From assembly GCF_057098645.1 (NCBI RefSeq), contig NZ_CM169472.1: DNA of 64,000 nucleotides. One strand, given 5' to 3'. The translations under genes were made by a program, and so were the position numbers. The notes below the pieces were generated by a model, which was given only the letters and a program-made list of their open reading frames with translations, was not told the DNA's origin and did no database searches. Each line of letters opens with the position of its first letter. Position 1 is the first letter of the stretch. This document shows positions 33,199 to 62,739 of this stretch, in pieces.

Positions 33199-33864
33199 TT
33201 AATGCAGGCAGCACTGCTTAAATTTCTTACCACTACCGCACGGGCAAGGATCGTTACGCCCCGGTTTCTCTTCTGCTTTGATCGGTTGCTGAACAGCTTT
33301 TTCCTGCGGATGCGCCATCCAGTACGCATGTAGATCAAGCGCCGCCAGTCGAATGGCATCTACGCTCTCTTCAAACGCTTCTGGCGACATCTTCTCTACC
33401 CGCTCGAAGTTTTCCTCAGTACCGTGCAGCGCAATCGCCTCCAGCGCTGGTTTTAACGAATCGGGCAATGTTGACCAGTCAGAAAGTGCCACGCCCCGCA
33501 TATAGCCAAAGCACCACTCCTCAACAATCGTCAGCTCGCTGCCATCAACTTCTCGCAAGCCGAATAACGGCTCAAACTGCTCCGGGAATTCGTTCAGACG
33601 CTCTGCGGTATCGGCCATATGTTGAAAAGCCAGGTTCATAAAGCGCGTCATCTCTTTCTCTGACGCCCAGCGCGGCACATAGTCAGCCCCACCCCACACG
33701 GCAACCAGCCACTGTGCCGGTTCAATCTCTTGCGGAGAACTCAACACCGCCGTCAATAAACCGTCCAGCTCCGCCACATCAAGGATGGCGTGGTCAGTGT
33801 TGTATTTGGTCAGAATATCGTCCAGCCATTCCAACTCACTTTCGTTTAACGGTCCCGTTTTCAT
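33199..33864 (-). CDS. yecA: UPF0149 family protein YecA (C-terminal SEC-C motif)
   Basis: 221-aa ORF ending ...[20 protein letters not shown]. Confidence 0.9.
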
Positions 33865-33990
33865 ACGCTTTTCCTTGTGGATCTCAACTCGCCAGCACCT
33901 ATCTTACATGCCGGTCCGTATCAGAGATACTTTTTGAGTGGCTTTGCCGGTGATTAAAAATCAAGGAGGGTGTAACGACAAGTTGCAGGC

Positions 33991-34016
33991 ACAAAAAAAC
34001 CACCCGAAGGTGGTTT
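33991..34016 (-). terminator. rho-independent terminator at the original leuZ 3-prime flank
   Basis: aaaaaaaccaccc gaa ggtggttt hairpin; left copy of the repeat. Confidence 0.6.
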
Positions 34017-34059
34017 CACGACACTGCTTATTGCTTTGATTTTATTCTTATCTTTCCCA

Positions 34060-34115
34060 TGGTACCCGGAGCGGGACTTGAACCCGCACAGCGCGAACGC
34101 CGAGGGATTTTAAAT
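34060..34115 (-). other. tRNA-Leu 3-prime fragment (integration remnant)
   Basis: tggtacccggagcgggacttgaacccgcacagcgcgaacgccgagggattttaaat equals the 3-prime part of leuZ; 5-prime part replaced by island sequence. Confidence 0.85.
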
Positions 34116-34462
34116 TCTACGCAATATCAATGAGTTACATAGCAGTGCATTGCGAAACTTTGCTGACGTTGAATGGTCGTCTTTGCAACCACTGGCAGAA
34201 AATGGATAGCCGTAGATTGCGTTGAGCACAGAAACAGCACAGGGTAATCGTCTACTTGGTCCTGTAAAGGAGGTTGTTGCCACACAAGCTAAAGCGCTTG
34301 ACCTGCCCCCAGTATTCGGTACAACTGTCAGTTAGTAATATCTGTTCTGTGAACCGCTCTCTGAATGTGATCCATTCATAATCAGCGCTACCTTTAGAGG
34401 TTGAATACCCAGCCCCTGGTAAACATAACGTTCCAGGGGGTACTTTGCGATGAAGGATATTT

Positions 34463-36334
34463 TTACAGCGTAAATTCGTTTCCGGGTCCAGTGCCCAGGT
34501 TATTTACTATATAAGCATCTATTCTCTGATCATTAAATCGCCAGCAGTCAATGGCAAGATCCATCAGCAGGCGTTGCCTTGATGTGATGCTTTCCGCAGA
34601 CCAGTCTTGATATTCATATCCATATTTCAGCTTAAAGCGATTTAATGCAGTGTTATCACCAATTGAGTACTGGGAGTGGAGTAATCGAGTCATGATGATT
34701 TCAGAGTTTAAATATTCTGTTTGTTTTTTCAAAAACCAGTCTTCACTCAAATCATTGCAGTTATTGACAGACTGGTTAATTGTACCCTCTAATAATGTTA
34801 CATTACCAAGTTTGTAGAGATAACTTGTTCGATTTACATCAGAGAACTCCCCGTTTTCAGGGGCGTTTCGTACCGTCTGAGGAAGAATATGCTCAATTTG
34901 CATCTGCTGAATAGCCTGCTGGCTCTTTTCCGGAAAACCGCAAAGATGGCGGATATGATTCTCTAATCTACCCAATACATAACGTTGGCGATACTGAGGC
35001 GTAAAATTATAGTCATTAATAATTGAGAATCGTTCTTTAAATTCATCTAAACGCTCCACAACAAAAGGTATAAGTGTTGCTGAAACAACATTTGCAACCT
35101 CTGCTTTCGTTTTCACATCCCGAAGCTTTACAGCCCATTGAGTAAAGCGTTGCTCATATGTCTTCGATTGAATAGCCATTGTATTTGTAAAGAATAAAAA
35201 GCTCTCAAGTTGAGCACCTAAGAAATCCATTACATCATCTGAACAACTAATATCCAATGCCATTAGTAAAACCAAATGCTGACGTGAGCGATATTTATTA
35301 ATATATCCAATGTTACTTACGTTTGGAAAACGGATATTTTCACGCCAGTAGGCTGCTTCATTTGTTGCATTGACCAGGTTAGCGTATCGTTCTGATAATT
35401 TTTCCAATTCTTTGACGAGGACCATAGGGCGTGTCTTATACTGCAACGACAGTTCCCCCTCAGCTGAAATGATCCATTTATATATATCATCTTCACGCAA
35501 AATCCCGTGATGATATCGTGCCATCAGAAAGTAACGTAAAAAACGAAGCGGGTTATCACTTTCGCCGCAAGACTCAAGGTTATTAGTGATGGATTTCCAT
35601 GTTGTCTTTATTGCCGAAAACTGTTCTTCTTTTATCTGACTGAAAATCAAATTTTTAACAAGATCCATAGCATTAAGGCTGGCACCACGCTGATTGATCG
35701 TTTCGAAGATCTTTAATGCGCTACTTAAGTTCTCTGATTCAATGACAACCAGCTCAACTTTTGTTAAAAAAAAGCGAGCGAAGGAGATTAATCCATTCAA
35801 GCTATCTTGCAATTGGTATTTAAGATAATCACGAATGTGATCATACGCGTCAGCCATTTTTTTTACTGAAGCTGTTTCCGCAAAGGTATTGGTTTGCCCT
35901 TCAATTAACCGCGAAATAAATCCTCGACTTTCTTCATATTGAAGATCTAGTCTAATTAGATTTTCCTCACTATTAATATCATAACTAGAGAGCCATTCCT
36001 CAATAGTTTTCAGATATTCCAGCCCTTTTTTGTCAAGTGTATCCAATCTATCTTTTAATAGATCCCGTAAGGCACACATAGTGATGACAATAGTGGTCAA
36101 CCGCTGCTGTCCGTCAATAACATCATGCTTTTCCCCATTCTTTACGATAATAACAGAACCGAGAAAATAACCATTTTGATCTTTCTGCTCTGGTTGGTAT
36201 TCATTGTCTAAATCCATGAGAAACTGTTCAACCTGATCATCAACCTTCCATACATACTCACGTTGATAATCGGGAACTAAAAAATAATAATCGCTTAATT
36301 TTGATATATTTTTTACATCGGCTTCTATTTTCAT
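34463..36334 (-). CDS. GmrSD-family type IV restriction endonuclease-like protein (DUF262 N-terminal, DUF1524 C-terminal)
   Basis: 623-aa ORF; N-terminal DGQQR motif typical of DUF262; C-terminal EHILPQ ... N-rich motif typical of DUF1524 His-Me finger. Confidence 0.65.
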   Translation of the reverse strand: MKIEADVKNISKLSDYYFLVPDYQREYVWKVDDQVEQFLMDLDNEYQPEQKDQNGYFLGSVIIVKNGEKHDVIDGQQRLTTIVITMCALRDLLKDRLDTLDKKGLEYLKTIEEWLSSYDINSEENLIRLDLQYEESRGFISRLIEGQTNTFAETASVKKMADAYDHIRDYLKYQLQDSLNGLISFARFFLTKVELVVIESENLSSALKIFETINQRGASLNAMDLVKNLIFSQIKEEQFSAIKTTWKSITNNLESCGESDNPLRFLRYFLMARYHHGILREDDIYKWIISAEGELSLQYKTRPMVLVKELEKLSERYANLVNATNEAAYWRENIRFPNVSNIGYINKYRSRQHLVLLMALDISCSDDVMDFLGAQLESFLFFTNTMAIQSKTYEQRFTQWAVKLRDVKTKAEVANVVSATLIPFVVERLDEFKERFSIINDYNFTPQYRQRYVLGRLENHIRHLCGFPEKSQQAIQQMQIEHILPQTVRNAPENGEFSDVNRTSYLYKLGNVTLLEGTINQSVNNCNDLSEDWFLKKQTEYLNSEIIMTRLLHSQYSIGDNTALNRFKLKYGYEYQDWSAESITSRQRLLMDLAIDCWRFNDQRIDAYIVNNLGTGPGNEFTL

Positions 36335-36391
36335 TTTATATCCTTACATAGCTGGATGAACACCATAGATCATACTGATCCCAGATCCAAT

Positions 36392-36901
36392 TCACAAACG
36401 AACAGGAGAGTAGACCCCTTCTACATTACAGCTATCTCCGTCATCAAAAATCAACTCTCCTGCACTATAACCATCCATGGATAAAATAGCCTTTTCATTG
36501 AGAGCCAGACTAAGGCACATTGATGTTTTTATCATATTATCTGTACCATAAATCTCATACCAGTTATCTTCTTTTTTAGAAACCTCTACCTCATACTTTC
36601 CTGAGTCAATATTAACCATGCTAAATACATTATCTACATCACATGAATCCTTGCTATCTGTAAAAATTATTTTTTTATCATAGCCATCAACCCTGAGATA
36701 TGCGTCTTCAGAATAAGCATAAACATAACAATATTTAGTATTAACAAAAGAATCCTTCCCAGTAATTTGATATAAATTACTATCTTTTCTTGTGACATTT
36801 ATTTCCCACGTATTGGCATGAACATAACCTGGAGCCAAAAACAGGGTTAATAAGAACGGTCCAATCTTGGCTTTAAAGTTTCTAACAATTTTGAAAAACA
36901 T
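36392..36901 (-). CDS. secreted protein of unknown function with two tandem Cys-containing repeat domains
   Basis: 169-aa ORF; signal peptide MFFKIVRNFKAKIGPFLLTLFLAPGYVHA; internal repeat NLYQITGKDS...CDVDNVFSMV / NWYEIYGTDN...CNVEGVYSPV. Confidence 0.55.
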   Translation of the reverse strand: MFFKIVRNFKAKIGPFLLTLFLAPGYVHANTWEINVTRKDSNLYQITGKDSFVNTKYCYVYAYSEDAYLRVDGYDKKIIFTDSKDSCDVDNVFSMVNIDSGKYEVEVSKKEDNWYEIYGTDNMIKTSMCLSLALNEKAILSMDGYSAGELIFDDGDSCNVEGVYSPVRL

Positions 36902-36952
36902 AAAACCCCTTCTTATATAGTTCTGTAATATGTTAATTTAGCTGGGCTCTTA

Positions 36953-37708
36953 CTACATATCAGCCAACAACATCCCAGCCATGCCATCCAGCCGTTTCTT
37001 GACCTTTTCCCACCCAGGCATAACCTGCCCCATCAGGCGGTAAAACTCTTCACTGTGGTTGTGCTCAGCAACATGGCATAACTCATGTAGCAAAACATAA
37101 TCGATACATTCTGAGGATGCCTTAACCAGCCATGGATTCAGGGTCAGACAGCCTTTTGCTGAACAGTTGCCCCATTGCGTTTGCATCGCCCGCAGACGTA
37201 TCGGAGGACGCTCACTGACCCAAAGGGTCTGCGGAATCAGTAAATCAAGCCTGCGCTGAAAAACATCTCTGGCACGTTCCCGATACCATTCAGCCAGCAA
37301 GGCTTTAATCTTTTCTGCCGATTTGTGTCTGACAGTCACTTCCAGACGCCCACGCAACATTTTCACTCGTTGCGGCACAGTAGCGTCTTCTGTCACTTTC
37401 AACTGATATTGCTTACCGAGATAATAATGGCTTTCTCCGCTGACATACTGACGCGGAACAATGTGTGTCTGTTGCTCCCTGAAATCACGCAGTTGCTGGT
37501 ATATCCAGCGCCCACGTTTTTTCAGCGCAGACAATACCTCGTGCTCCGGTGTTTCAGGCGGTACAGAGGCCACAACCCGGCAGTCCGGATAAACCTTGAT
37601 GAGCACCCTGCCCTTTACGACCTGACGCGGAACACACTGTACGACGATGACCTCATCACCATAGACAATGCGTAACGCTTTCATTGATGGCGATTCTTTT
37701 TCACTCAT
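36953..37708 (-). CDS. DUF45/YgjP-like zinc metallohydrolase
   Basis: 251-aa ORF with HELCHVAEHNHSEEF (HExxH...NHS); 4-nt overlap with hsdR stop. Confidence 0.6.
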   Translation of the reverse strand: MSEKESPSMKALRIVYGDEVIVVQCVPRQVVKGRVLIKVYPDCRVVASVPPETPEHEVLSALKKRGRWIYQQLRDFREQQTHIVPRQYVSGESHYYLGKQYQLKVTEDATVPQRVKMLRGRLEVTVRHKSAEKIKALLAEWYRERARDVFQRRLDLLIPQTLWVSERPPIRLRAMQTQWGNCSAKGCLTLNPWLVKASSECIDYVLLHELCHVAEHNHSEEFYRLMGQVMPGWEKVKKRLDGMAGMLLADM

Positions 37709-40700
37709 GATTTCATCAAACCAACGCGCAGTATCTGGATGATGGTTTCCACAATACGGTTAACCTGATTCATTCCGGCACCAATTTCCCGGCAGGCCGT
37801 AAACAGCAGTGGTAGCAGACTTGTCTTAACGACTTTCTCAATGTCCTGGGGGTTCAGGGAGTTTTCTGCCACCGCTTTGACGATAATGTTGTCCACGTCA
37901 AAAGCCAGCTTCGTCCACTTATCCTGCACTTGAACGTCTTTTACCACAAAAACCTCAGGTAGCTCTTTTTTAAATACACCGTAATATGCCTGAGCATGCT
38001 TGTTTACCGCCAAAGCATCCGGGATATCACTGAGCTTACGGGCTTTAACCTGTTCTTCAAACTCACGGAATAAGAGGTACTGCTTAAGTGGATGGTCGAA
38101 CAGTTTTTCAGCCTCTTCGATTGCCATACGCAGGAGTCTGGAAAAGGCCTCCTGAGCATACGGATCATCACGCAGCTCCTGCTCAATCATCTTCGTCACA
38201 CGGGTTTTAATGATGTCGGTTTCATTGCGGGTTTTATTGTTATCCCACTCTTCGGGTTTTTCGCTCTTGCCCATTTTACCGACTTCATACACGCCATCCG
38301 GTTCACGAACCTCAACGCCGGTAACATGCTTATCCAGCAATTTTTTCACCTGCTCAGCGTAGTCGTCATAATTGACCTGCTCTCCACTTACCTGCATCGC
38401 CCACTGGCGAAGGCTGGACATCTGTTTTACGGTTTCTTTATAGAGATTTCGGTCTTGTTCCGTAAAGCTCTTGTCGGTGAAGAAGGTAGCGGACTGCAGT
38501 GCCACTTTCAGGCATCCGGCAAAGGCCGTTAACGCCTCGAAGAAATCATCACGGGTTTTCTGATGGATATCGACCATCTCTCCGTCACGTTCTTCCATTT
38601 TAGGCACCAGTACTGCACGTAACTGCTCAGTATCATTTTTGTTTTTAACACCGGCAAATATGGCCCACAACTGGTTATACAGATGCGGCAGACGTTTATA
38701 TTCAGAGCTCATGGCGCTGTACAGCCCGTCAATATCCTTGATGTCGTATCCTCCCTGGGTTCGGGAGGCGAGATCCTGATATTTGCCGATAGTCGTGTCC
38801 AGTTCAGCCAGAATGCCGCGATAATCAATCAGCAGGCCAAACTTTTTCAGTGGATGCAGACGGTTTACCCTTGCAATCGCCTGGATAAGGTTGTGGGACT
38901 TAAGCGGCTTGTCGATATACAGCACGGTATTCTTCGGTTCATCAAATCCGGTGAGCAGTTTATCAACGACGATCAGTAATTTGAGCTTATCATCAGTATC
39001 GAAACGACTGATGATATTGCGGGTATACACAGACTCATCCTGCATGCCGACGTTATCTTTCCACCATTTCGTCACTTCCGGCAGTTTGCTTTCATCCACC
39101 TCAGTATTCCCTTCCCGGGTATCCGGCGGGCTGATAACTACAGCTGACTCAAACAACCCGGCTTCATCAAGATACTTTTTATATTTGATGGCGGAAATCT
39201 TGCTGTCGCAGGCAAGTTGGCCTTTCAGCCCCTCATCAATATTCTTCGAGAAGTGTGTGGCGATATCGAGTGCGATCAGCCGGATGCGGTCATCTGCACT
39301 GTAGACCTCACCTTTACGGGCATATTTACGTTTAAGGTCGGCTTTTTGCGCTTCGCTTAACCCATCGGTAATACGGTCAAACCAGGCATCTATTGCCCGA
39401 TCGTTAACCTCAAGGTCGGGAATACGTTCTTCATACAGCAAAGGTGTAACGGCTTTATCTTCTACCGCTCGCTGCATGGTATAAGCGTGGACAATCGGCC
39501 CGAATTTATTGGTGGTCTTATCTTCTTTTAGCAATGGCGTACCGGTGAATGCCACAAAGGCGGCGTTCGGCAGTGCCAGTTTCATTCGCACATGGTTCTC
39601 ACCCCCCTGGCTGCGGTGTCCTTCATCAATCAGAACGATGATGTCGGGGCTGGTATTGACGCATTCAGGCAATTTTGTCGCTGAGTTAAATTTCTGGATA
39701 AGGGTAAAGATTATACGTTCTTTACCAGAGCCAATCTGCTGTGCCAGCTTCTGACCTGAGGTCGCCATCGCTTTGGCCTTATCATCCTTCCCTGCCAGTT
39801 CGCCACCAGAGACAAAAGTGCCGCTGAGCTGCCCTTCAAGGTCCACGCGGTCCGTCACCACCACAATACGACACTGCTTCAGGCTGTCATGAAGGATCAG
39901 CGCCTTGCTGAGGAATACCATGGTGTAAGATTTACCTGACCTCGTGGTATGCCAGATCACCCCACCTTCCCTGCCCCCGTCTGGTCTGCGGGTACTGATG
40001 CGTTCCAGCAGTCTTTTTATCCCGAACACCTGCTGATAGCGGGCAACAATTTTTCCGGTTTTTTTATCAAACAGGGTGAAGAAGCGGGTCATCTCCAGCA
40101 GACGTTCCGGTGAAAGCAGACTGATGAGCAGCTTATCCTGCCCGCTGACTGCCAGTTCCCCCCCATCGATTAACTGTTGATACCATTTGAGATCGACTGA
40201 AGGACGATGATCAAACAACGCATGAATTTGTTCAGTCGATAACTGATGGTTGCGCAGCGCATACATCTGCGGATCGGTAATATCTTCTTCGCGCCATGCC
40301 GCCCAGAATTTCATTGGCGTATGGCATGTACCGTAGCGCCCGTCATGACCGTTAATCGAAAGTAATAACTGGCTGTAGACAAACAGCTGCGGGATTTCAT
40401 CGTTGAACTGGTTGCGGATACTCTGGGATATCCCCTCGTCAATGGTTGGCCCTTTCTTGCCATGACCAGCCGGGCTTTTCGCTTCAATAACAGCCAGCGG
40501 GATACCATTAACAAAGCAGACAATATCCGGTCTGCGGGTTTCAACACCGCCTGACCGCAATACCGTAAATTCTTCAGTAAAATGGAACTGGTTATTTTCC
40601 GGATGTTCCCAGTCGATCAGCGCAATGGTGGGGTTGACCTTCTTGCCATCGACAAATTCGGTGACGGCGATACCGTAGAGCAGATGGTTATACATCCGTT

Positions 40701-40989
40701 CATTGGCTTTGAGCAGCCCTTCATTCAGCGCCGGAGAACAGACCTGTGATATCAGGTTATCCAGTGCTTTTTCCGATAACTGGCAGTTTTTGCCACCCGC
40801 CATAAAGGAACGCTTCGACAGCTCTTCACGCAGAACCGGACGCAGCACCACCTCATCCTGTTTATAGCCCCGGTAATCCATAATCTGTTTCGGAGATAAA
40901 AACGTCCAGCCGAGGCTGGTCAGTAACGTCAGTGCCGGGATTTTGGCGCTGTATTCTTCCTGGAATTTAGGTTGGTAGTGCTTATCCAC
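37705..40989 (-). CDS. hsdR: type I restriction enzyme R subunit
   Basis: 1094-aa ORF; N-terminal PD-(D/E)xK-like IEAK motif, SF2 helicase motifs including DEGHRS. Confidence 0.85.
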   Translation of the reverse strand: MDKHYQPKFQEEYSAKIPALTLLTSLGWTFLSPKQIMDYRGYKQDEVVLRPVLREELSKRSFMAGGKNCQLSEKALDNLISQVCSPALNEGLLKANERMYNHLLYGIAVTEFVDGKKVNPTIALIDWEHPENNQFHFTEEFTVLRSGGVETRRPDIVCFVNGIPLAVIEAKSPAGHGKKGPTIDEGISQSIRNQFNDEIPQLFVYSQLLLSINGHDGRYGTCHTPMKFWAAWREEDITDPQMYALRNHQLSTEQIHALFDHRPSVDLKWYQQLIDGGELAVSGQDKLLISLLSPERLLEMTRFFTLFDKKTGKIVARYQQVFGIKRLLERISTRRPDGGREGGVIWHTTRSGKSYTMVFLSKALILHDSLKQCRIVVVTDRVDLEGQLSGTFVSGGELAGKDDKAKAMATSGQKLAQQIGSGKERIIFTLIQKFNSATKLPECVNTSPDIIVLIDEGHRSQGGENHVRMKLALPNAAFVAFTGTPLLKEDKTTNKFGPIVHAYTMQRAVEDKAVTPLLYEERIPDLEVNDRAIDAWFDRITDGLSEAQKADLKRKYARKGEVYSADDRIRLIALDIATHFSKNIDEGLKGQLACDSKISAIKYKKYLDEAGLFESAVVISPPDTREGNTEVDESKLPEVTKWWKDNVGMQDESVYTRNIISRFDTDDKLKLLIVVDKLLTGFDEPKNTVLYIDKPLKSHNLIQAIARVNRLHPLKKFGLLIDYRGILAELDTTIGKYQDLASRTQGGYDIKDIDGLYSAMSSEYKRLPHLYNQLWAIFAGVKNKNDTEQLRAVLVPKMEERDGEMVDIHQKTRDDFFEALTAFAGCLKVALQSATFFTDKSFTEQDRNLYKETVKQMSSLRQWAMQVSGEQVNYDDYAEQVKKLLDKHVTGVEVREPDGVYEVGKMGKSEKPEEWDNNKTRNETDIIKTRVTKMIEQELRDDPYAQEAFSRLLRMAIEEAEKLFDHPLKQYLLFREFEEQVKARKLSDIPDALAVNKHAQAYYGVFKKELPEVFVVKDVQVQDKWTKLAFDVDNIIVKAVAENSLNPQDIEKVVKTSLLPLLFTACREIGAGMNQVNRIVETIIQILRVGLMKS

Positions 40990-41058
40990 CCGGTAATCCT
41001 TCTTGGCTAAGAGGTGAAACTGTATGTCCTTACGGACATACTCAAAATGAACGAAGAC

Positions 41059-42843
41059 TTATGATGAAAAGAACGGCGAGTCCCGATAAAGGCGATTGTA
41101 CTTGACCTGTTCTGTTTCGCCCTTGTTTACATTACCAAATTTCTCCTGATGCGTCGTACAGCAGGAACCACAGGATGCACAAATAAATCGTCCTTCTGAA
41201 CATTTTTCATGCAAATCCCTGGCGTCAATTATTTCGCTGCATTTGTAACCAATACAGTGATTAATGTAATGCCCGATACCAAACTGTTCGCACGAATGAC
41301 TGGCACATTTAAAGACGGTCAGGCGATACGCGGCCTGGAAAGGTTTTTTCACAAATCCTTTCGACTTTGTATCCCAGACGCTGACTTCCACACGAGCATA
41401 TTTCATATCTGGAACCATCAGCACCCCACAACTTCGGCAATGCAAGCGGGAATGTAATTCTCTGATACGATTGAAATACCCAGCCAGTTTAATTGGGAAA
41501 TCCCGCTTAGAAGGTTCGCCTGCAATCAGATAGGTCATGCCATAGTGGGCAAGCCAGTCATAAATAGTGAAGTCGATGTAATCCCGACTGAGGTCGGGTA
41601 GTACCTGCGGATCATGGCAGATTTTCGAACGACAAAGGAATTTTTTCTCTATCGTTCCGTCAGGTTGTTTTGCATTCCAGTGAAATGCCTCACAGGATAA
41701 TTTTAAATTCCGGGAACGAATTTTCAATGAGCTACACTGTGGGAACAATTTGAAAACAGAAGGATGGCTTACCGGGATTTTACCCGACAACACTCCCTGC
41801 CATATCTCATGCAGAATAATACTCAGAACGGACTGTTCATCGTTACGCCCAATCAGCGGTAACAATTTACTCAGAATAAAGTATTCAGGGTCAGAAGAAA
41901 TTTCAGTATTCGACTCAATATCATTAACAAAACTGAAATCTTTCCTGAACATCTTCTGTTTAATCAAATACTTATTGACAAAAGGACTAATCACGGAATG
42001 TTTATAAAATTGCTCTCTCGATGAGAATTTCTGCTGATAGGCATCACGGACAAATGGTTGTATATCCATTTTATTTTTCGTGAAACTACGTCGAACAAAA
42101 TTCTCTATATCATCATGCCGATGTTCAAGAATCCGCTCGCTGCTTATACAATCGTAAAATGCCAGGTAGAGAATAGCACTTATAGATATATGGCTGAGTA
42201 ATTCATTGATGATGTCCGATGTTGAAGCCCCCTGGCAATCCGTAGCCGCAGAACACCTTTTCACCCAAACAGCGAACTGATCAATGTTATTATCGATAAA
42301 TGACGAAGGCATGACTGCAGGAGATATTTGTTGTGCGGTCAAATCATCAAAATTCTTATCAGAGGCGAAAAGTGCAAACTGGTTATCGTAGTTACGTGAT
42401 TTTAAAAATAGCGGCAAGACTTTTGTAGCAGCTATATCACTGGTAACTAACCGAATTATAGCCCTTTCGCCAAAGGACTGAGTGAGAAAATTAATAACGC
42501 AGTCACGATAACGCCAACGAGCGAAATCAACGCCCTCCTCAATAATAGCCCGGAGATATTCAATAAGGAGCTCAGCCGTCTCCTCATCTGTTTTATCAAG
42601 AATGTGAACATTAAAAGCCGTAGGCTTACCATTTTTACCTGTACCTTCCCTGAACAGCACCGGTGCATTGTCTGCGGGTGTATAGTTCCGGCTTATCTCA
42701 TTCTTATGAAAAAACAGCTCATTACCATTCTCTGATAAGAGAAAGCCAAAGTTATTCTCCCGATCCGTTTTGCTGTTGTAGCCTCCGAACCAGAGAACAT
42801 TTCCCATGTACCACCGGGAACGATCCAGATTGTTCACTGCCAT
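41059..42843 (-). CDS. protein of unknown function: N-terminal cold-shock-like domain, C-terminal Cys/His-rich putative zinc-ribbon region
   Basis: Start chosen at MAVNNLDR with RBS GAAGGGGG 7 nt upstream (594 aa); WFGGYNSKTDRENNFGFL resembles the CSD KWFN..KGFGFI core; C-terminal clusters CRSCG, CASHSC, CASCGSCC. Confidence 0.55.
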   Translation of the reverse strand: MAVNNLDRSRWYMGNVLWFGGYNSKTDRENNFGFLLSENGNELFFHKNEISRNYTPADNAPVLFREGTGKNGKPTAFNVHILDKTDEETAELLIEYLRAIIEEGVDFARWRYRDCVINFLTQSFGERAIIRLVTSDIAATKVLPLFLKSRNYDNQFALFASDKNFDDLTAQQISPAVMPSSFIDNNIDQFAVWVKRCSAATDCQGASTSDIINELLSHISISAILYLAFYDCISSERILEHRHDDIENFVRRSFTKNKMDIQPFVRDAYQQKFSSREQFYKHSVISPFVNKYLIKQKMFRKDFSFVNDIESNTEISSDPEYFILSKLLPLIGRNDEQSVLSIILHEIWQGVLSGKIPVSHPSVFKLFPQCSSLKIRSRNLKLSCEAFHWNAKQPDGTIEKKFLCRSKICHDPQVLPDLSRDYIDFTIYDWLAHYGMTYLIAGEPSKRDFPIKLAGYFNRIRELHSRLHCRSCGVLMVPDMKYARVEVSVWDTKSKGFVKKPFQAAYRLTVFKCASHSCEQFGIGHYINHCIGYKCSEIIDARDLHEKCSEGRFICASCGSCCTTHQEKFGNVNKGETEQVKYNRLYRDSPFFSS

Positions 42844-42865
42844 GAGCAAGCCCCCTTCCGCTTTG

Positions 42866-43549
42866 TCAGTGCAGGCAGCACTTTTTAAATTTTTTACCAC
42901 TGCCACACTGACACGGGTCATTACGACCGGGCAGTTTTTCTGCCCCCTTCACGGGAACAGGCCGGGATGATGCCTCTGACATTCTCACCGACAACCAGTG
43001 CTGGTAAAGCGCCAGTGCCGCAGGCTGAATGAGAGTAATACTCTGTTCAAATTGAACAGGTGACATTTTCTCAACCACTGGGAAGTTCTTTTCAATACCA
43101 TGAAGGGCTATCGCCTCCAGCGAGGGACGTAAGGCCTCTGGCAAGGCTGACCAGTCATCCAGAGACCGGCCTTTCATATACCCGAAACACCACTCTTCGA
43201 CGATGGTATATGTCTTCCCCTTCACCTCACGTCCATTGAAAATCGGTTCAAACTGTTCAGGGGCCTCATACAGGCAGCCAGCGATATCGTTCATATGCTG
43301 AAAACACAGCCCCACAAAACGCGTCATCTCTTTTTCAGTGGTCCAGCGAGGGTGGTAATCACCTCGCCCCCAGATAGCACTGAGCCAGGTATTAGGGGAA
43401 ATCGTATTCGGGCCAGAGACAATCGCCGTCAGAAAGCCATCCAGCTCAGAGAAACAGAGCACAGAGTCATCATTGCCGTATTTCATCAACACCTCTTCCA
43501 GCCAGTCGATTTCCCGGTCAATCAGCGGCCCGCTTTTCGTCAGTTTCAT
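42866..43549 (-). CDS. YecA-like UPF0149 protein with SEC-C motif (paralogue of chromosomal yecA)
   Basis: 227-aa ORF colinear with YecA at roughly 60 percent identity by eye, ends [24 protein letters not shown] overlap with hsdS stop; stop 22 nt before next gene. Confidence 0.7.
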   Translation of the reverse strand: MKLTKSGPLIDREIDWLEEVLMKYGNDDSVLCFSELDGFLTAIVSGPNTISPNTWLSAIWGRGDYHPRWTTEKEMTRFVGLCFQHMNDIAGCLYEAPEQFEPIFNGREVKGKTYTIVEEWCFGYMKGRSLDDWSALPEALRPSLEAIALHGIEKNFPVVEKMSPVQFEQSITLIQPAALALYQHWLSVRMSEASSRPVPVKGAEKLPGRNDPCQCGSGKKFKKCCLH

Positions 43550-44188
43550 TCGGCAACCGCCTCATCGACCTTAACACGACGTTTGCCAGTCAGTAGCTGT
43601 TGCATCAGGGCTTTTTTCTCGTCTTTCAGGCAGGCGAGTTTTTTCTCCAGCGTGGAGATTTCAGCGTCGGCAGCGGAAAGGACGGCGGCGATTTTTTGTT
43701 GTTCTTTGATATCTAATGGCAACCTAAAGTCTTTCTCTTTAAGTTCTCGCATATGTCTGCTGTAACCTAAATTCGGAATATCTGTATTTGAAAGAAGATA
43801 GTATCCAAGTTTTGGTTCAAGTATTTTGCTAGTTTTTATTACTTGCGTTCCATCAGCACCGGGACAAAACACAAACTCAATCCATTTGACGCATCTTGTA
43901 TGATCGCCAAAAACAATCACAGGCACGTCCGAATAAACCTCTAAATTATTACAGTACCCAGCAATTCGACTTTGCCCTTGATCGATTATAGGGATGGAAC
44001 CTGACTGTAAATAATCGGAAGATTTGACTTGCGCCGATTTTTTATTTGCAACAATGAAAGCATTATCAAACGTTAAATATACCCACTCCCCATTAAACCT
44101 CCCCCCATTCTCATCCAGCAAGCGTTTTTGTCCGGTAAGCAATTGCTGCATCAGGGCTTTTTTCTGTTGCTGGCTGTTGGTGAGAAGC

Positions 44189-45245
44189 GGCTTTGTTGAA
44201 TAAATCAGATTTCGGGTAAGTCTCCCCCGTAGCGGGTTGTGTTTTCAGGCAATACGCACGCTTTCAGGCATACCTGCTTTCGTCATTTTGTTCAGCGCTC
44301 GTACCAGGGCCATAGCCTCCGCAACCTGACCATCGTAGTCACGCAGCGTCAGTGAACCCCCGAACAGCTGTTTTACCCGGTACATCGCCGTTTCCGCTAT
44401 CGAGCGACGGTTGTAATCTGTTGTCCATTTCCACCGCGCATTACTCCCGGTCATTCGCTGATTAGCCACTGCACGGTTACGGTCTGCATATTCACCGGGC
44501 CAGTAGCCCGCACCTTTTCGGGGAGGGATAAGCGCGCTGATTTTCTTACGCCGCAGTTCATCGTGACATAGCCGGGTATCGTAAGCGCCATCGGCGGCGG
44601 CTGACCTGATTTTCCGGTGGGTTTGCCGGATTAACCCGGGGAAGGCCTCTGAGTCCGTAACGTTGTTCAGCGACAGGTCTGCACAGATGATTTCATGTGT
44701 TTTACTGTCAACGGCGAGATGCAGCTTACGCCAGATACGGCGGCGTTCCTGGCCATGCTTTTTGACTTTCCACTCGCCTTCACCGAAGACCTTCAGCCCG
44801 GTGGAATCAATCACCAGATGTGCGATTTCACCCCGGGTGGGCGTTTTGAAACTGACATTAACCGACTTTGCCCGCCTGCTGACACAGCTGTAATCCGGGC
44901 AGCGTAGCGGAACGTTCATCAGAGAAAAAATGGAATCAATAAAGCCCTGCGCAGCGCGCAGGGTCAGCCTGAATACGCGTTTAATGACCAGCACAGTCGT
45001 GATGGCAAGGTCAGAATAGCGCTGAGGTCTGCCTCGTGAAGAAGGTGTTGCTGACTCATACCAGGCCTGAATAGCTTCATCATCCAGCCAGAAAGTTATG
45101 GAGCCACGGTTGATGAGGGCTTTATTGTAGGTGGGCCAGTTGGTGATTTTGAACTTTTGCTTTGCCACGGAACGGTCTGCGTTGTCGGGAAGATGCGTGA
45201 TCTGATCCTTCAACTCAGCAAAAGTTCGATTTATTCAACAAAGCC
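44189..45245 (-). mobile_element. IS903-like element (IS5 family), copy 1, 1057 bp
   Basis: Terminal inverted repeats GGCTTTGTTGAATAAATC; 9-bp target duplication GTGAGAAGC at 44180-44188 and 45246-45254. Confidence 0.9.
44245..45213 (-). CDS. IS903-like transposase
   Basis: 322-aa ORF; recognised by eye as IS903/IS102-type transposase. Confidence 0.85.
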   Translation of the reverse strand: MKDQITHLPDNADRSVAKQKFKITNWPTYNKALINRGSITFWLDDEAIQAWYESATPSSRGRPQRYSDLAITTVLVIKRVFRLTLRAAQGFIDSIFSLMNVPLRCPDYSCVSRRAKSVNVSFKTPTRGEIAHLVIDSTGLKVFGEGEWKVKKHGQERRRIWRKLHLAVDSKTHEIICADLSLNNVTDSEAFPGLIRQTHRKIRSAAADGAYDTRLCHDELRRKKISALIPPRKGAGYWPGEYADRNRAVANQRMTGSNARWKWTTDYNRRSIAETAMYRVKQLFGGSLTLRDYDGQVAEAMALVRALNKMTKAGMPESVRIA

Positions 45246-45815
45246 GTGAGAAGCTTTTCCGTCACCGAAATCGCCTCATCCCAGGTTGACAGAATTTTAA
45301 CGATTCTCTTTTGTTCAGACAGTGGGGGGATATTAAATGGCCACTTAAACCAACTATCTAACTTAAAAATCATTTTCTCTATGTGCACACCAATGCTAGA
45401 GTGGAAGCAGGTTTGCTGGAAATATAGAGACTCCGATAGAAATTCCATATAAGGAAGATAAAAACCGGACTTCCCTGTAAGCACACAATATTCATTCGAT
45501 ACAATTGAGCCAGAAAGTTCTTTAGGTACAAGACCGCAAGCACCGTGCACAATTTGTCGTTTTGATATGAGAAAGTCGCCTTCTTTAATATAGAATTGAC
45601 TTTTTACGGAGATATCTTTTCCTTTAAGATGCTCACGTCTTATTACGCCACCTCTGGAGCGCTTTACTGTAACTAAGTCATACTCTTGATTATCTTGTAT
45701 ATATGCCTTTCTTGCCTCTATATTTAAGCACTTTTCTAATGATAACTTTTGCCATCCTGTAGGTAGCATTCCAAGGATCGGTTTTCCAGCTTTAACGCTC
45801 ACTGGGTAAAGCGAA

Positions 45816-47339
45816 TCACGAGCCATAACCCAACTCCTTCAAATACCCTGCCATCTCAACTTCCAGCTTCGCCAGTTCCACCTTCAGTTGCTCACGCTCT
45901 GCTCGCACCGCCACCAGGTCAATCTCATCCTCTTCTTCAAAGGTATCGACATAGCGCGGAATATTGAGGTTGTAATCGTTGTCCTGAATTTCCTTCAGGC
46001 TGGCAAGATAGGCGTATTTCTCGACGTTATCGCCATCACGGTAGGTCTTGACGATTTTCTTAATGTTTTCTTCGCTAAGCTGGTTCTGGTTTTTACCTGC
46101 CTTGAATTCACGGCTGGCATCGATAAACAGCACCTTGTCATCAACTTTCTACTTTTTGAAAATCAGAATCGCAGCCGGAATCCCCGTACCGTAGAACAGT
46201 TTTTCCGGCAGACCAATTACCGCATCCAGCAAATTTTCGTCGATCAGTTTCTGGCGAATTTTACCTTCGCTGGAGCCACGGAAAAGCACACCGTGTGGCA
46301 CAACTACGCCCATACGGCCAGTTCCCGGTTTCAGGGTTTCGATCATATGCGAGATAAAAGCGTAATCTCCTTTAGTCTTCGGCGGTACACCGCGACGAAA
46401 ACGGCCAAACTTATCGTTCTCGGCCTCGTCATGGCCCCACTTATCGAGGCTGAACGGTGGGTTAGCGGTCACGATATCAAACAGCATCAGGTCGCCATTT
46501 TTATCGAGCAGCTTCGGGTTACGAATGGTATCGCCCCACTCGATTTTATGGTTGTCTTCCCCGTGCAGGAACATATTCATTTTCGCCAGCGACCACGTAG
46601 AACCGATCGCTTCCTGACCGAACAAGGCATAGTTACGACTATCATGCCCGGAGACAATTTTACGCCCACACTTCATCAATAATGAACCGGAACCACAGGC
46701 TGGATCGCAGATGGTATCACCCGGTTGCGGATCGAGCAGTTCTGCAATCAGGTCCGAAACTTCCGGCGGGGTATAGAACTCCCCGGCTTTCTGCCCACCG
46801 CTGGCGGCAAAGTTTTTGATCAGGTATTCGTAAGCATTGCCGATAACGTCCAGCGTACCGACACGACTCGGCTTCAGGTTGAGATCTTCACCGGCGAAGT
46901 CTTCCAGTAGCTGACGCAGTATGGTGTTTTTCTGTTTTTCTTCGCCAAGACGATCGGTGTTAAACGAAATATCCTGGAACACGCTTTTCCCGGCATCTTT
47001 CAGTTTGGTTCCGTTGGCTTCTTCGATTGCATGCAGAGCCTGATCGATACGCTCACCGTTACCCAGCTCATGGCGGCGTTCGTACAGCGCATAAAAGCTG
47101 GCACTTTTTGGCAGTACAAAACGCTCGTTGGCCATCATCGCTTCAATCAGTTCCGGCGCATCGCCATACTGTTCTTTGTATTCGTCATAGTGATCCTGCC
47201 AGACATCTGAAATGTACTTGAGGAACAGCATGGTAAGGATAAAGTCTTTATAGGTATCAGCACTGATGGTGCCACGGAACGTATCACACGCGGCCCACAG
47301 GGCTTTGTTGATCGTGTCCTGACTGATTTTGTCGTTCAT
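45816..47339 (-). pseudogene. hsdM: type I R-M methyltransferase HsdM with in-frame amber codon at 46149-46151
   Basis: 396-codon ORF with N6-adenine MTase motifs (DPACGSG, NPPF) stops at ...AAILIFKK TAG, then continues in frame KVDDKVLFIDAS... for 105 more codons; overlaps hsdS start. Confidence 0.8.
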
Positions 47340-54421: not shown

Positions 54422-54434
54422 GTTGTTCCTTCTG

Positions 54435-55970: not shown

Positions 55971-56594
55971 AGTGCTCCTGGATTTTCTCTTTCTGGACAT
56001 TGACGTCTCCACTGGTTTAAACACGGCAATGGAGACTGTGGTGAAAAGAGTTAATTCCCGGAGTGACTGGCAGGATGCCAATCAATGATCGGAAGCATGC
56101 CAAATCGTGATCGATTGTGATGCCAAACTGTGATCGGAGATGGATGCCAAATCATGATCGATTCGAATGCCAAACTGCGATCGATTCAGATGCCATTTTG
56201 CAGCCGGGGGGGACGAACTCCCGGCATTTTTTCGGAGTTAACTATGAGCAATAATTTGCAGGACATCCTCGCTGCCGCATCGGGGTATCAGTCCGTGACT
56301 TCAGAGCCAGCGCTCAATCTTAAAAGACCTAAAACGCTTGATGATTATCCTGTGATACCACCTGCATCAAAAAAAGTATCTGTTATTTCAAGTGACCTGA
56401 CACTCCATATCGGTTTTGATACCGAATATGTTTTCAATCCTGAAACACAACAGAATGATATTCTGTCATATCAGAGTTATGTTGTCTTACCCGATAATAC
56501 AGGTATATCGAACATTATCTATCCACCTGACTCACAGAAAAAATCCCGGCTGTCTTTTAAGAACTTTCTCTGTCAAACGATTATGGATTTGCCC

Positions 56595-57500
56595 CTATAT
56601 TTCCAGACATCTGTTATCACTTAACCCATTACAAGCCCGCTGCCGCAGATATTCCCGTGGCGAGCGATAACCCAGCGCACTATGCGGATGCCATTCGTTA
56701 TAATGCTCGAACGCCTCTGCAAGGTTCTTTGCTGCCGTTAACCCGTCTGGTTTGGGCATGATACTGATGTAGTCACGCTTTATCGTTTTCACGAAGCTCT
56801 CTGCTATTCCGTTACTCTCCGGACTCCGCACCGCCGTGTTCTTCGGTTCAAGTCCCAACATCCGGGCGAACTGGCGTGTTTCATTAGCCCGGTAGCATGA
56901 ACCATTATCCGTCAGCCACTCCACTGGAGACGACGGAAGATCGTTGCCGAAGCGGCGTTCCACCGCTCCCAGCATGACGTCCTGTACTGTTTCACTGTTG
57001 AAGCCGCCGGTAGTCACCGCCCAGTGCAGTGCCTCACGATCACAGCAGTCCAGCGCGAACGTGACACGCAGTCTCTCTCCGTTATCACAGCAGAACTCGA
57101 ACCCGTCAGAGCACCATCGCTGATTGCTTTCTTTCACGGCCACTCTGCCTGTATGTGCCCGTTTCGATGGCGGTACAGCAGGTTTTCGCTCAAGCAACAG
57201 CGCATTCTGGCGCATGATCCGGTAAACACGTTTGGCATTGATCGCAGGCATACCATCAAGTTCTGCCTGTCTGCGAAGCAGCGCCCATACCCGACGATAA
57301 CCATACGTGGGCAGCTCTCCGATAACATGGTGTATACGGAGAAGCACATCCGTATCATCAGTGTGACGACTGCGGCGGCCATCCATCCAGTCATCGGTTC
57401 GTCTGAGAATGACGTGCAACTGCGCACGCGACACCCGGAGACAACGGCTGACTAAGCTTACTCCCCATCCCCGGGCAATAAGGGCGCGTGCGCTATCCAC
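56595..57500 (-). CDS. insD: IS2 transposase InsD
   Basis: 301-aa ORF. Confidence 0.85.
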
Positions 57501-57823
57501 TTTTTTGCCCGTCCATATTCAACGGCTTCTTTGAGGAGTTCATTTTCCATCGTTTTCTTGCCGAGCAGGCGCTGGAGTTCTTTAATCTGCTTCATGGCGG
57601 CAGCAAGTTCAGAGGCAGGAACAACCTGTTCTCCGGCGGCCACAGCAGTAAGACTTCCTTCCTGGTATTGCTTACGCCAGAGAAATAACTGGCTGGCTGC
57701 TACACCATGTTGCCGGGCAACGAGGGAGACCGTCATCCCCGGTTCAAAGCTCTGCTGAACAATTGCGATCTTTTCCTGTGTGGTACGCCGTCTGCGTTTC
57801 TCCGGCCCTAAGACATCAATCAT
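57458..57823 (-). CDS. insC: IS2 InsC
   Basis: Start at [13 protein letters not shown], 121 aa. Confidence 0.85.
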
Positions 57824-60523: not shown

Positions 60524-60709
60524 ATTTATCCTCATGTATCTGATTGATATCATGAAAATAATATATATCTGAAGGTGTTTTTATTACGGGGCAGGATTGA
60601 AGAATGGAAAAGCTATTAGACGCGTACAAACGGATATTGCAGGAAGTTAACGCCCAGTCATTTAACCTGAATGAGGATAAATACTCAGGCGTCTTTTTAC
60701 CCGTGCCGT

Positions 60710-62708: not shown

Positions 62709-62739
62709 CCCTTGTGTCTACCGATTCCACCATCCGGGC
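62653..62739 (-). tRNA. leuZ: tRNA-Leu
   Basis: 87-nt sequence, reverse complement GCCCGGATGGTGGAATCGGTAGACACAAGGGATTTAAAATCCC...GGGTACCA. Confidence 0.9.

What the first reader, a model, noticed from the sequence alone, without database searches (positions are those of the whole stretch)
33199..43549. Island carries a paralogue of yecA, the gene that flanks its integration site
Chromosomal YecA (33199-33864) and the island protein (42866-43549) are colinear with a near-identical SEC-C tail and the same orientation. yecA is the gene immediately adjacent to leuZ in the core genome. This raises the possibility that chromosomal yecA is itself an ancient remnant of such elements, or that homology between the copies has mediated rearrangements.
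Basis: seen in the sequence. Interest (0 to 1): 0.5.

Follow-up and report, generated by a model that had tools for sequence, protein, structure and literature searches.

The report
Restriction-operon YecA copy beside host yecA
The second yecA-like gene is real, but it is an accessory gene of a mobile Type I restriction-modification operon carried here by a known island type (a pipolin) and elsewhere by hundreds of plasmids, so lying beside the host's own yecA looks like a by-product of where pipolins integrate.

Summary
Core YecA (33199-33864) and the island protein (42866-43549) are colinear: 58% identical, same strand, near-identical SEC-C tail.

The interpretation mostly fails.
- The island is a degraded pipolin, bounded by 130-bp repeats at 33986-34115 and 62579-62708. 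Pipolins are known to integrate at leuZ.
- The island copy (yecA') sits inside a Type I R-M operon: hsdM-hsdS-yecA'-CSD protein-hsdR-YgjP protease. It matches PADLOC's untested candidate PDC-S12.
- The same module occurs in 420 of 5426 complete E. coli genomes, mostly in leuZ pipolins. It also occurs at the ydeT/hipBA locus, on about 347 mainly Klebsiella conjugative plasmids, and in Morganella and Providencia.
- A homologous hsdS-YecA-hsdR-YgjP arrangement exists in Pseudomonas and in marine gammaproteobacteria.
- The two copies share 62% of nucleotides and at most 14 identical bases in a row. No hybrid gene occurs in any finished genome, so recombination is not supported here.
- Core yecA lies outside the repeats and is far from any tRNA in Erwiniaceae and Yersiniaceae, so it is not a leuZ-element remnant.
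- In trees, the island clade is the sister of all core Enterobacterales YecA (84-97% bootstrap). Which gave rise to which is unresolved.

Function is untested. I infer a ribosome/SecB-docking holdase serving HsdR.

The parts
33199..33864 (-). Core yecA (ascA), 221 aa, UPF0149 + SEC-C metal-binding domain
   Evidence: ORF; Pfam; NCBIfam PRK10396, 437 bits; 100% identical to RefSeq WP_000847882.1 'UPF0149 family protein YecA'. The ftnA-yecH-tyrP-yecA-leuZ-pgsA order is conserved in Enterobacteriaceae.
33986..34115 (.). Left att direct repeat of the pipolin: a copy of the leuZ 3' end plus its terminator
   Evidence: 130 bp, 99.2% identical to 62579-62708. It starts 122 bp from the yecA start codon, so yecA lies outside the element.
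34463..36334 (-). GmrSD / DUF262 Type IV restriction-like nuclease
   Evidence: Pfam GmrSD_N + GmrSD_C; PADLOC HEC-06, 1.3e-79.
36392..36901 (-). 169-aa hypothetical protein
   Evidence: ORF. No significant family. Conserved in Franconibacter and E. coli 74-2.
36953..37708 (-). YgjP-like (DUF45 / SprT / WLM-like) zinc metalloprotease; its start overlaps the hsdR stop by 4 nt
   Evidence: Pfam YgjP-like 3.1e-58, with weak WLM and SprT matches. It follows hsdR in every related operon.
37705..40989 (-). hsdR, 1094 aa, intact
   Evidence: Pfam HSDR_N, SWI2_SNF2, T1R_D3-like. This lineage is present in 552 of 5426 E. coli genomes.
41059..42843 (-). 594-aa protein with an N-terminal cold-shock domain (annotated from 42921 as 620 aa); variable cargo between yecA' and hsdR
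42866..43549 (-). yecA' : the R-M-embedded YecA paralogue, 227 aa (PADLOC PDC-S12)
   Evidence: ATGA stop/start overlap with hsdS. dN/dS is about 0.1 among alleles. AF2 pLDDT 93.
43546..45826 (-). hsdS split by an IS5 (IS5 transposase ORF 44245-45213; hsdS fragments 43546-44151 and 45215-45826)
   Evidence: Pfam Methylase_S on both fragments. IS5 transposase ORF. hsdS is intact in strain RM9872.
45816..47339 (-). hsdM with an internal stop codon after residue 396, so the R-M system is inactive in this strain
   Evidence: Translation shows ...LIFKK*KVDD.... Pfam N6_Mtase + HsdM_N. RefSeq notes 'internal stop'.
56130..60135 (+). piPolB (primer-independent PolB), the pipolin hallmark, split by an IS2-like insertion (56595-57868)
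   Evidence: ORFs. 100% match to the RM9872 'DNA-directed DNA polymerase'. The identification as piPolB rests on pipolin definitions in PMC11551731 and PMC7385651; no piPolB-specific model was run here.
59975..60553 (-). Remnant (Arm DNA-binding N-terminus) of the leuZ-proximal integrase, with an IS5 lying just beyond its 5' end
   Evidence: ORF. RefSeq 'Arm DNA-binding domain-containing protein, incomplete'. The gene is intact in H10407.
62579..62708 (.). Right att direct repeat, overlapping the 3' 56 nt of leuZ (62653-62739)

Best explanation
The island protein is not tied to yecA by the integration site. It is an accessory gene (yecA', PADLOC candidate PDC-S12) of one family of Type I restriction-modification operons. 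It lies in the hsdS-hsdR interval, the slot that PrrC occupies in the prr locus, and a YgjP/SprT-like protease gene follows hsdR.

That operon is exchangeable cargo. Here it rides in a pipolin, an element whose integrase targets the 3' end of leuZ. In Enterobacteriaceae, leuZ happens to be followed by the housekeeping yecA.

Shown here:
- The operon architecture and its conservation across gammaproteobacterial orders.
- Its mobility: pipolins, another chromosomal locus, and conjugative plasmids.
- Purifying selection on yecA'.
- The island clade's sister relationship to core Enterobacterales YecA.
- The lack of a usable recombination substrate between the two copies in this genome.

Inferred, about 35-40% likely: like core YecA/AscA, which is a holdase that docks on ribosomes and SecB through its SEC-C domain, YecA' uses the same tail to meet nascent protein. 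It would serve the operon's own large HsdR subunit, holding it or handing it to the adjacent protease. This would tune when and how much active restriction enzyme forms, for example after transfer to a new host.

In this strain the system is dead: hsdM has a stop codon and hsdS is split by IS5.
For: - Operon layout and ATGA coupling with hsdS.
- The same hsdM-hsdS-yecA'-(CSD)-hsdR-YgjP module in E. coli H10407, PSS-16, NB4833, S43 and 74-2, in six further genome-collection loci (K. michiganensis plasmid contig, Franconibacter, two Buttiauxella, an Enterobacter MAG and C. freundii), with partial or divergent versions in Intestinirhabdus and Morganella, and on a Klebsiella IncFII plasmid.
- About 347 plasmids carry a copy at 80% identity or more; 339 of the 371 matched plasmids are conjugative.
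- Homologous operons with YecA directly upstream of hsdR-YgjP or with one cargo gene between, in Pseudomonas MAGs, a Pseudohongiella-like lineage, a Pseudidiomarina-like lineage and the P0169 lineage. Another lineage has YecA directly downstream of an EcoR124-type hsdR.
- PADLOC PDC-S12 match, 8.5e-98. PDC candidates were defined by embedding in BREX, DISARM or Type I R-M systems and are untested (bioRxiv 10.1101/2024.01.29.577857).
- Pipolins integrate at tRNA-Leu between pgsA and yecA and often carry Type I R-M plus PDC-S12 (PMC11551731; PMC7385651).
- att repeats in the window.
- dN/dS of 0.07-0.18.
- Tree: island clade monophyletic in 100% of replicates; island + core together in 84-97%; island with other R-M-linked YecAs in 0-1%.
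- Core YecA/AscA binds SecB and ribosomes through its MBD and prevents aggregation (bioRxiv 10.1101/2020.07.21.215244).
Against: - No experiment links YecA' to HsdR, to the protease or to phage defence.
- Near-identical operons work without it: C. amalonaticus has HsdM 100% and HsdR 96% identical with a clean hsdS-hsdR junction. About 130 of 552 E. coli genomes with this hsdR lineage lack yecA'. It is therefore dispensable for R-M as such.
- YecA does not co-diverge with HsdR. YecA/HsdR identity to the window is 43/76% for the Pseudohongiella-like operon and 52/60% for Pseudomonas. This fits a swappable module better than an obligate subunit.
- The fold search gave no functional clue beyond UPF0149.
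- In E. coli the strong co-occurrence with leuZ pipolins means that 'coincidence' rests on the non-leuZ cases in other loci, plasmids and genera.
Confidence: 0.8

Rival explanations
1. Domestication, a modified form of the first reader's idea. YecA was ancestrally a Type I R-M-borne gene. The housekeeping yecA/ascA of Enterobacterales descends from such a copy left behind when an operon decayed in the stem lineage. The island clade is the surviving mobile sister.
For: The core clade and the island clade are sisters. Half of the nearest non-enterobacterial lineages sampled are R-M-embedded in the same slot: Pseudomonas, P0122, P0127, P0169 and P0130, against Halopseudomonas, P0133, P0131, P0126 and P0123. 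By my own count on the NJ topology, one gain plus two losses of R-M linkage is no worse than four independent gains into the same slot. Orphaned yecA' next to a decayed R-M is seen today in Providencia and in this window.
Against: Deep branches are weakly resolved (NJ on 219 columns). More distant family members sampled are chromosomal, for example in a sucCD neighbourhood. Core yecA is not tRNA-linked in Erwiniaceae or Yersiniaceae and lies outside the att repeats. Replacement of an R-M-borne copy by the host gene through gene conversion would give the same tree.
Confidence: 0.25
2. Capture from the flank. A leuZ-integrated element excised imprecisely in an Enterobacteriaceae host and picked up the neighbouring yecA. 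The captured gene then diverged inside the element.
For: yecA starts 122 bp from the att repeat. Prophage records at leuZ do run over into yecA.
Against: The island clade is no closer to the leuZ-adjacent Enterobacteriaceae yecA (50-59% identity) than to Erwiniaceae or Yersiniaceae yecA (56-60%), which are not next to leuZ. It falls outside the whole core clade in 62-83% of bootstraps. yecA' sits 8.7 kb inside the island, translationally coupled to hsdS, in the same slot as in non-enterobacterial operons.
Confidence: 0.05
3. Recombination substrate. Homology between the two direct copies drives deletions or duplications, producing chimeric yecA genes.
For: Three chimeric proteins exist in metagenome assemblies. 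P0014 is island N-terminus joined to core C-terminus, and lies between an upstream ORF overlapping its start by 4 nt, as hsdS does in the intact operon, and a convergent downstream ORF in DNA matching the Citrobacter yecA-tyrP region. That is the deletion product predicted for direct repeats. P0015 and P0019 are core N-terminus joined to island C-terminus; P0019 is followed by hsdR. The L093 junction is a 24-nt block identical in C. braakii yecA and the H10407-type allele, which is close to the roughly 23-27 nt commonly quoted (from memory) as the minimum for RecA-dependent recombination.
Against: In this window the copies are 62% identical with a longest run of 14 nt. Each chimera is known from one short metagenome contig, one of them at 2.2x coverage. 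A 24-nt shared block is enough to join de Bruijn graphs at k = 21. No half-length match appears among 421 E. coli records (the weakest covers 65% and is a frameshifted pseudogene) or 371 plasmid records.
Confidence: 0.1
4. Stand-alone embedded defence gene (the PDC-S12 reading). YecA' acts independently of the R-M enzyme and uses the operon only for co-transfer. For example, it could sense infection and block translation or Sec export through its SecA-like tail, or counter anti-restriction proteins.
For: The guilt-by-embedding rationale, under which six other embedded candidates were validated. yecA' is optional within the operon. The neighbouring slots hold diverse cargo: the CSD protein, AlbA_2, DUF6161, RhuM, YhcG and Bro-N. 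YecA evolves faster than HsdM or HsdR.
Against: There is no enzymatic or toxic domain. Adjacency is persistently to hsdR rather than a random position. PDC-S12 itself is untested, and its HMM scores the housekeeping gene higher than the embedded one.
Confidence: 0.3

Closest known systems
E. coli YecA / AscA (UPF0149 + SecA-like metal-binding domain; bioRxiv 10.1101/2020.07.21.215244 and 10.1101/613315)
   Same: Same two-domain architecture and length. 58% identity. The metal-ligand pattern C-x-C...C-C-x-H is conserved. It passes the NCBIfam YecA equivalog model.
   Different: The island copy is encoded inside a mobile Type I R-M operon rather than at the tyrP-leuZ core locus. It forms a separate clade with 100% bootstrap support. 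No binding or chaperone data exist for it.
PADLOC PDC-S12 (phage defence candidate found by 'guilt-by-embedding'; Payne et al., bioRxiv 10.1101/2024.01.29.577857)
   Same: Full-length HMM match (8.5e-98) and embedding in a Type I R-M system, which is the criterion by which PDCs were defined. PDC-S12 is listed as frequent pipolin cargo in Enterobacterales.
   Different: PDC-S12 is an untested label. The model scores the housekeeping YecA even higher (1.7e-110), so it does not separate the embedded clade from the core gene.
Pipolins of E. coli (piPolB-encoding integrative elements at tRNA-Leu; PMC7385651, PMC11551731)
   Same: piPolB, two tyrosine recombinases, att direct repeats overlapping the leuZ 3' end, and a defence-gene cargo including Type I R-M, GmrSD and PDC-S12.
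   Different: This copy is heavily degraded. piPolB is split by an IS, the leuZ-proximal integrase is truncated, and hsdS and hsdM are inactivated.
PrrC in the prr locus (hsdM-hsdS-prrC-hsdR, EcoprrI); comparison from my own knowledge
   Same: A non-R-M gene fixed in the hsdS-hsdR interval of a Type I operon. Payne et al. describe PrrC as almost exclusively embedded in Type I R-M.
   Different: PrrC is an ABC-ATPase anticodon nuclease. YecA' has no nuclease or ATPase domain.

Membership tests
YecA family (UPF0149 + SEC-C; NCBIfam NF007704 / PRK10396) | N-terminal UPF0149 domain | tested here: met
   Pfam PF03695, 1.4e-29, residues 15-185. TIGR02292, 4.4e-39.
YecA family (UPF0149 + SEC-C; NCBIfam NF007704 / PRK10396) | C-terminal SecA-like metal-binding (SEC-C) motif with Cys/His ligands | tested here: met
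   PF02810, 9.3e-08, residues 209-225. C213, C215, C224 and C225 are invariant in a 46-sequence alignment. The tail matches SecA MBD chains in the PDB.
YecA family (UPF0149 + SEC-C; NCBIfam NF007704 / PRK10396) | Score above the curated equivalog cut-off | tested here: met
   350.5 bits against a cut-off of 149.
YecA family (UPF0149 + SEC-C; NCBIfam NF007704 / PRK10396) | Same function as E. coli YecA/AscA (binds SecB and ribosomes; holdase) | not testable with these tools
   This would need binding and aggregation assays. Only the core protein has been studied.
PADLOC PDC-S12 | HMM match | tested here: met
   PDLC04917, 8.5e-98, full length.
PADLOC PDC-S12 | Embedded within a BREX, DISARM or Type I R-M system | tested here: met
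   The gene lies between hsdS and hsdR, with ATGA overlap to hsdS.
PADLOC PDC-S12 | Confers phage resistance | not testable with these tools
   Its authors list it as an untested candidate.
Pipolin | Encodes piPolB | tested here: inconclusive
   A PolB-like gene is present, 100% identical to the RM9872 'DNA-directed DNA polymerase', and is found in 422 E. coli genomes. It is split by an IS here. No piPolB-specific model was run; the identification rests on locus, att site and literature.
Pipolin | Integration at a tRNA 3' end with flanking att direct repeats | tested here: met
   130-bp repeats at 33986-34115 and 62579-62708, the latter overlapping leuZ.
Functional Type I R-M system | Intact hsdM, hsdS and hsdR | tested here: not met
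   hsdM has an internal stop and hsdS is split by IS5. Only hsdR is intact. The system is intact in H10407, PSS-16 and the Klebsiella plasmid.
PrrC-type embedded abortive-infection nuclease | ABC-ATPase N-domain plus anticodon-nuclease C-domain | tested here: not met
   No such domains in Pfam, PADLOC or the fold search. Only the operon position is shared.

The most novel reading that the evidence does not exclude
A widespread mobile Type I R-M family carries its own copy of a host ribosome/SecB-docking chaperone, and that copy tracks the host order. The enterobacterial version is sister to enterobacterial core YecA, and the Pseudomonas version groups with a Pseudomonadales chromosomal YecA. 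This would imply one of two things. Either YecA' is a dedicated co-translational holdase or adaptor that, together with the SprT/YgjP-like protease, controls HsdR assembly and restriction alleviation. Or the housekeeping chaperone AscA of Enterobacterales was itself domesticated from a defence-operon gene.
Probability: 0.25. Interest if true: 0.6.

Novelty: already known. Interest (0 to 1): 0.3.

Why it matters
As posed, the finding is largely explained by known things: a yecA paralogue in an island beside yecA. Pipolins integrate at leuZ, and the R-M-embedded YecA-like gene is already catalogued as PDC-S12.

Three residual points have some value.
1. The embedded gene is a close paralogue of a characterised host chaperone. 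It is kept next to hsdR and a SprT-like protease across gammaproteobacterial orders and on hundreds of clinical Klebsiella plasmids. That gives a concrete, testable hypothesis for an untested defence candidate.
2. The PDC-S12 model cannot tell the embedded gene from housekeeping yecA. Survey counts of this 'system' in Enterobacteriaceae are therefore probably inflated.
3. Whether core yecA/ascA was donor or descendant of the mobile copy is an open but tractable evolutionary question.

Tried and rejected
- Recombination between the copies: rejected for this genome (62% nucleotide identity, longest run 14 nt).
- Chimeras: three chimeric proteins were found, but each comes from a single short metagenome contig with no isolate support. 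I treat them as probable assembly chimeras, unresolved.
- Capture of flanking yecA by imprecise excision: rejected on phylogeny.
- Phage-borne yecA: the six 'phage' hits are core yecA at the ends of prophage records.
- Metagenome scan with an outgroup alignment: largely wasted. Only about 20 loci were YecA-like, most on short contigs with no recognisable context.
- Domain fusions of YecA (DUF6933, DUF1186) gave no functional lead.
- The fold search of the YecA' model found only lpg0076 (4GYT), itself uncharacterised.
- The fold search of the CSD protein identified only its cold-shock domain.
- Cluster look-ups of outgroup representatives gave few taxon names, so the presence of core yecA in sister orders could not be settled.
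- A mosaic test of the island clade against core and R-M-linked groups showed no clear recombinant segments.
- Literature searches found nothing linking YgjP to Type I restriction, and no named discussion of YecA in R-M operons.


Full report
**Observation.** BLASTP gives 58% identity over 223 residues with E = 3e-100, colinear from end to end. Both proteins have a UPF0149 domain and a SEC-C motif. Both exceed the NCBIfam YecA equivalog cut-off. The tails differ at 2 of 20 positions. leuZ, a tRNA-Leu(taa), lies at 62653-62739, followed by cysT and glyW. Where the site is empty, yecA is the first gene after leuZ, as in E. coli E69, E. albertii, Klebsiella and Salmonella.

**What the island is.** The closest complete genome is E. 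coli O145 RM9872. A 130-bp direct repeat at 33986-34115 duplicates 62579-62708. It comprises the last 56 nt of leuZ plus its terminator. This delimits an element of about 28.6 kb, and core yecA lies 122 bp outside it. The element encodes a PolB-type polymerase, two tyrosine recombinases and defence genes. Published work describes exactly this: E. coli pipolins always integrate at the Leu-tRNA gene (PMC7385651), 'between pgsA and yecA', and commonly carry Type I R-M and PDC-S12 (PMC11551731). The copy in the window is badly degraded:
- An IS splits piPolB.
- The leuZ-proximal integrase is reduced to its Arm fragment.
- IS5 splits hsdS.
- hsdM has an internal stop.

**What the paralogue is.** yecA' is embedded in a Type I R-M operon with this order:
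- hsdM
- hsdS, whose stop overlaps the yecA' start as ATGA
- yecA'
- after 22 nt, a 594-aa protein with a cold-shock domain
- hsdR
- a YgjP/SprT-like metalloprotease overlapping the hsdR stop

A 169-aa ORF and a GmrSD nuclease follow. yecA' matches PADLOC model PDC-S12 over its full length. PDC candidates are untested genes nominated because they are embedded in BREX, DISARM or Type I R-M systems. The same model scores the housekeeping YecA higher still.

**Is it tied to leuZ?** In 5426 complete E. coli genomes, yecA' occurs in 420, piPolB in 422 and this hsdR lineage in 552. Wherever it was listed, yecA' abuts hsdS. Eight chromosomal loci were inspected:
- Six lie between yecA and leuZ: RM9872, H10407, NB4833, S43, 74-2 and CP8-3.
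- Two lie at the ydeT/hipBA-lsr locus: PSS-16 and a Logan contig.

Outside E. coli, alleles 83-99% identical sit in the same operon in a K. michiganensis plasmid contig, Franconibacter, Buttiauxella, an Enterobacter MAG and C. freundii, with partial or divergent versions in Intestinirhabdus and Morganella. In Providencia an allele lies beside an hsdS remnant. Of 371 plasmid records that match, about 347 carry a copy at 80% identity or more. Of the 371, 342 are from Klebsiella and 339 are conjugative. One example is an IncFII plasmid with the whole module next to traX and finO. The phage collection holds only six hits. All are core-type yecA at the extreme end of P2-like prophage records, which means the record boundary overran into the host flank. 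So the association is with the R-M operon, not with leuZ. In E. coli it is frequent at leuZ because pipolins are its main vehicle there.

**Depth of the R-M association.** Homologous operons have a YecA gene in the hsdS-hsdR interval, directly upstream of hsdR-YgjP or with one cargo gene between. Their HsdM is 72-91%, HsdR 60-76% and YgjP 51-62% identical to the window's. They occur in:
- two Pseudomonas MAGs, next to tRNA-Phe
- a Pseudohongiella-like lineage
- a Pseudidiomarina-like lineage
- the P0169 lineage

Another lineage places YecA directly downstream of an EcoR124-type hsdR. Other embedded cargo varies around it: Bro-N, DUF6161, DUF4357, RhuM, YhcG, an AlbA_2 protein and the CSD protein. 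About half of the nearest non-enterobacterial lineages sampled are R-M-linked. The rest are in ordinary chromosomal or unclear contexts. YecA identity does not track HsdR identity, so the module has been swapped among operons. It is also optional. A C. amalonaticus island at the same site has HsdM 100% and HsdR 96% identical, with a clean hsdS-hsdR junction. About 130 E. coli genomes have this hsdR lineage without yecA'. Among island alleles dN/dS is about 0.1, so the protein is under purifying selection.

**Phylogeny.** I built neighbour-joining trees on 52 sequences and 219 columns, with 200 bootstraps and two distance measures.

| Grouping | Bootstrap support |
|---|---|
| Island clade monophyletic | 100% |
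| Island + core Enterobacterales together | 84-97% |
| Core monophyletic, island outside it | 62-83% |
| Island with other R-M-linked YecAs, excluding core | 0-1% |

The island clade is no closer to Enterobacteriaceae yecA (50-59% identity) than to Erwiniaceae or Yersiniaceae yecA (56-60%). In those two families yecA has no tyrP, leuZ or any tRNA within 10 kb. This argues against two ideas. The first is that core yecA is a remnant of a leuZ element. The second is that the element picked up the flanking yecA by imprecise excision.

The tree does not settle direction. An R-M operon may have acquired, or converted its copy to, an early enterobacterial yecA. Alternatively, stem Enterobacterales may have domesticated an R-M-borne copy. 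By my own count on the NJ topology, the two scenarios need similar numbers of events. I give domestication about 25%.

**Recombination.** The two copies in the window are 62% identical at DNA level, with a longest identical run of 14 nt. That is too short for efficient RecA-dependent exchange (my recollection of the minimum is about 23-27 nt). Three chimeric proteins exist in the protein database. Their contigs have the flanks expected of recombination between direct repeats. One junction is a 24-nt block identical in C. braakii yecA and the H10407-type allele. However, each chimera is known from one short metagenome contig, one at 2.2x coverage, with no isolate support. No half-length match occurs in finished E. 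coli genomes or plasmids; the weakest E. coli hit covers 65% and is a frameshifted pseudogene. I regard them as probable assembly chimeras and leave the point open.

**Mechanism.** Core YecA (AscA) binds SecB and ribosomes through its SEC-C domain and prevents aggregation. Its authors also raise a role in handing substrates to proteases. YecA' keeps the same architecture and metal ligands. It is modelled with high confidence (pLDDT 93). It has no enzymatic domain, and its only fold match is the uncharacterised lpg0076. Because it is persistently adjacent to hsdR and a SprT/WLM-like protease, my preferred inference is a dedicated holdase or adaptor for the 1094-aa HsdR. It would tune assembly or turnover of the restriction subunit, for example during establishment in a new host. 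I put this at about 35-40%. The main rival, at about 30%, is an independent embedded defence gene, as the PDC label implies. Neither has been tested.

**Verdict.** The elements involved are already known: a pipolin, a Type I R-M system and PDC-S12. Interest is modest.

Noticed in passing
window 33199-33864 vs 42866-43549 (PADLOC scan): The PADLOC PDC-S12 HMM scores housekeeping YecA (366 bits) above the R-M-embedded copy (325 bits). PDC-S12 calls in Enterobacteriaceae genome surveys are therefore likely to be mostly the core gene.
   Followed up: partly
window 41059-42843 (annotated to 42921): A 594-aa protein with an N-terminal cold-shock domain, a large helical middle and an invariant Cys/His-rich C-terminus fills the yecA'-hsdR slot. 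It has no PADLOC or NCBIfam match. The AF2 model is confident (pLDDT 85), but only the CSD matches the PDB. The family has 82 clusters, in Erwinia, Vibrio, Aeromonas and Pseudomonas. Most of the 30 listed Klebsiella plasmid hits annotate it beside yecA'. It is an uncharacterised embedded candidate.
   Followed up: partly
window 44245-45213, 51787-53000, 53663-56081, 56595-57868, 60742-61710: The pipolin is riddled with insertion sequences: two identical IS5 copies, an IS3-family element, an IS21-family element and an IS2-like element. They disrupt hsdS, piPolB and the region next to the truncated integrase. hsdM also has a stop after residue 396. The element looks immobile and its R-M system dead.
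   Followed up: partly
L189 (ON470596.1 1-666) and five other 'phage' records: GenBank phage records of P2-like prophages carry core yecA at the very end of the record. This is host flank included by boundary overrun at the leuZ site.
   Followed up: yes
L012 13107-14202 (Franconibacter helveticus LMG 23732): The same island and its att repeat abut ftnA directly, with no yecH-tyrP-yecA between. No core-type yecA locus from this genome was returned by the scan. The island copy may be its only YecA, or the scan missed the core copy.
   Followed up: no
L092, L093 (ENA metagenome contigs); proteins P0014, P0015, P0019: Chimeric core::island YecA genes. The two whose contigs were examined (L092, L093) switch at or near the [10 protein letters not shown] codon block, which is a 24-nt identical stretch in L093. 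Flanks match the products expected from recombination between direct repeats. They could be real exchange or k-mer assembly chimeras.
   Followed up: partly
L050 1-6500 (Citrobacter amalonaticus S646): An island at the yecA-leuZ site has a near-identical Type I R-M (HsdM 100%, HsdR 96%) but no yecA' and no scar. There are therefore two operon forms, with and without the insert.
   Followed up: yes
L100 6001-6660 and 8160-8822 (Pseudomonas sp. chromosome): Two divergent YecA paralogues lie 1.5 kb apart in a non-R-M context, near a YhcG/DUF1016 nuclease-like gene.
   Followed up: no
L003 3408-6206 (E. coli PSS-16, ydeT/hipBA island): A 932-aa 'SEC-C metal-binding domain-containing protein' lies in the same defence island as the yecA'-containing R-M operon. 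This is another SEC-C-tailed protein in a defence context.
   Followed up: no
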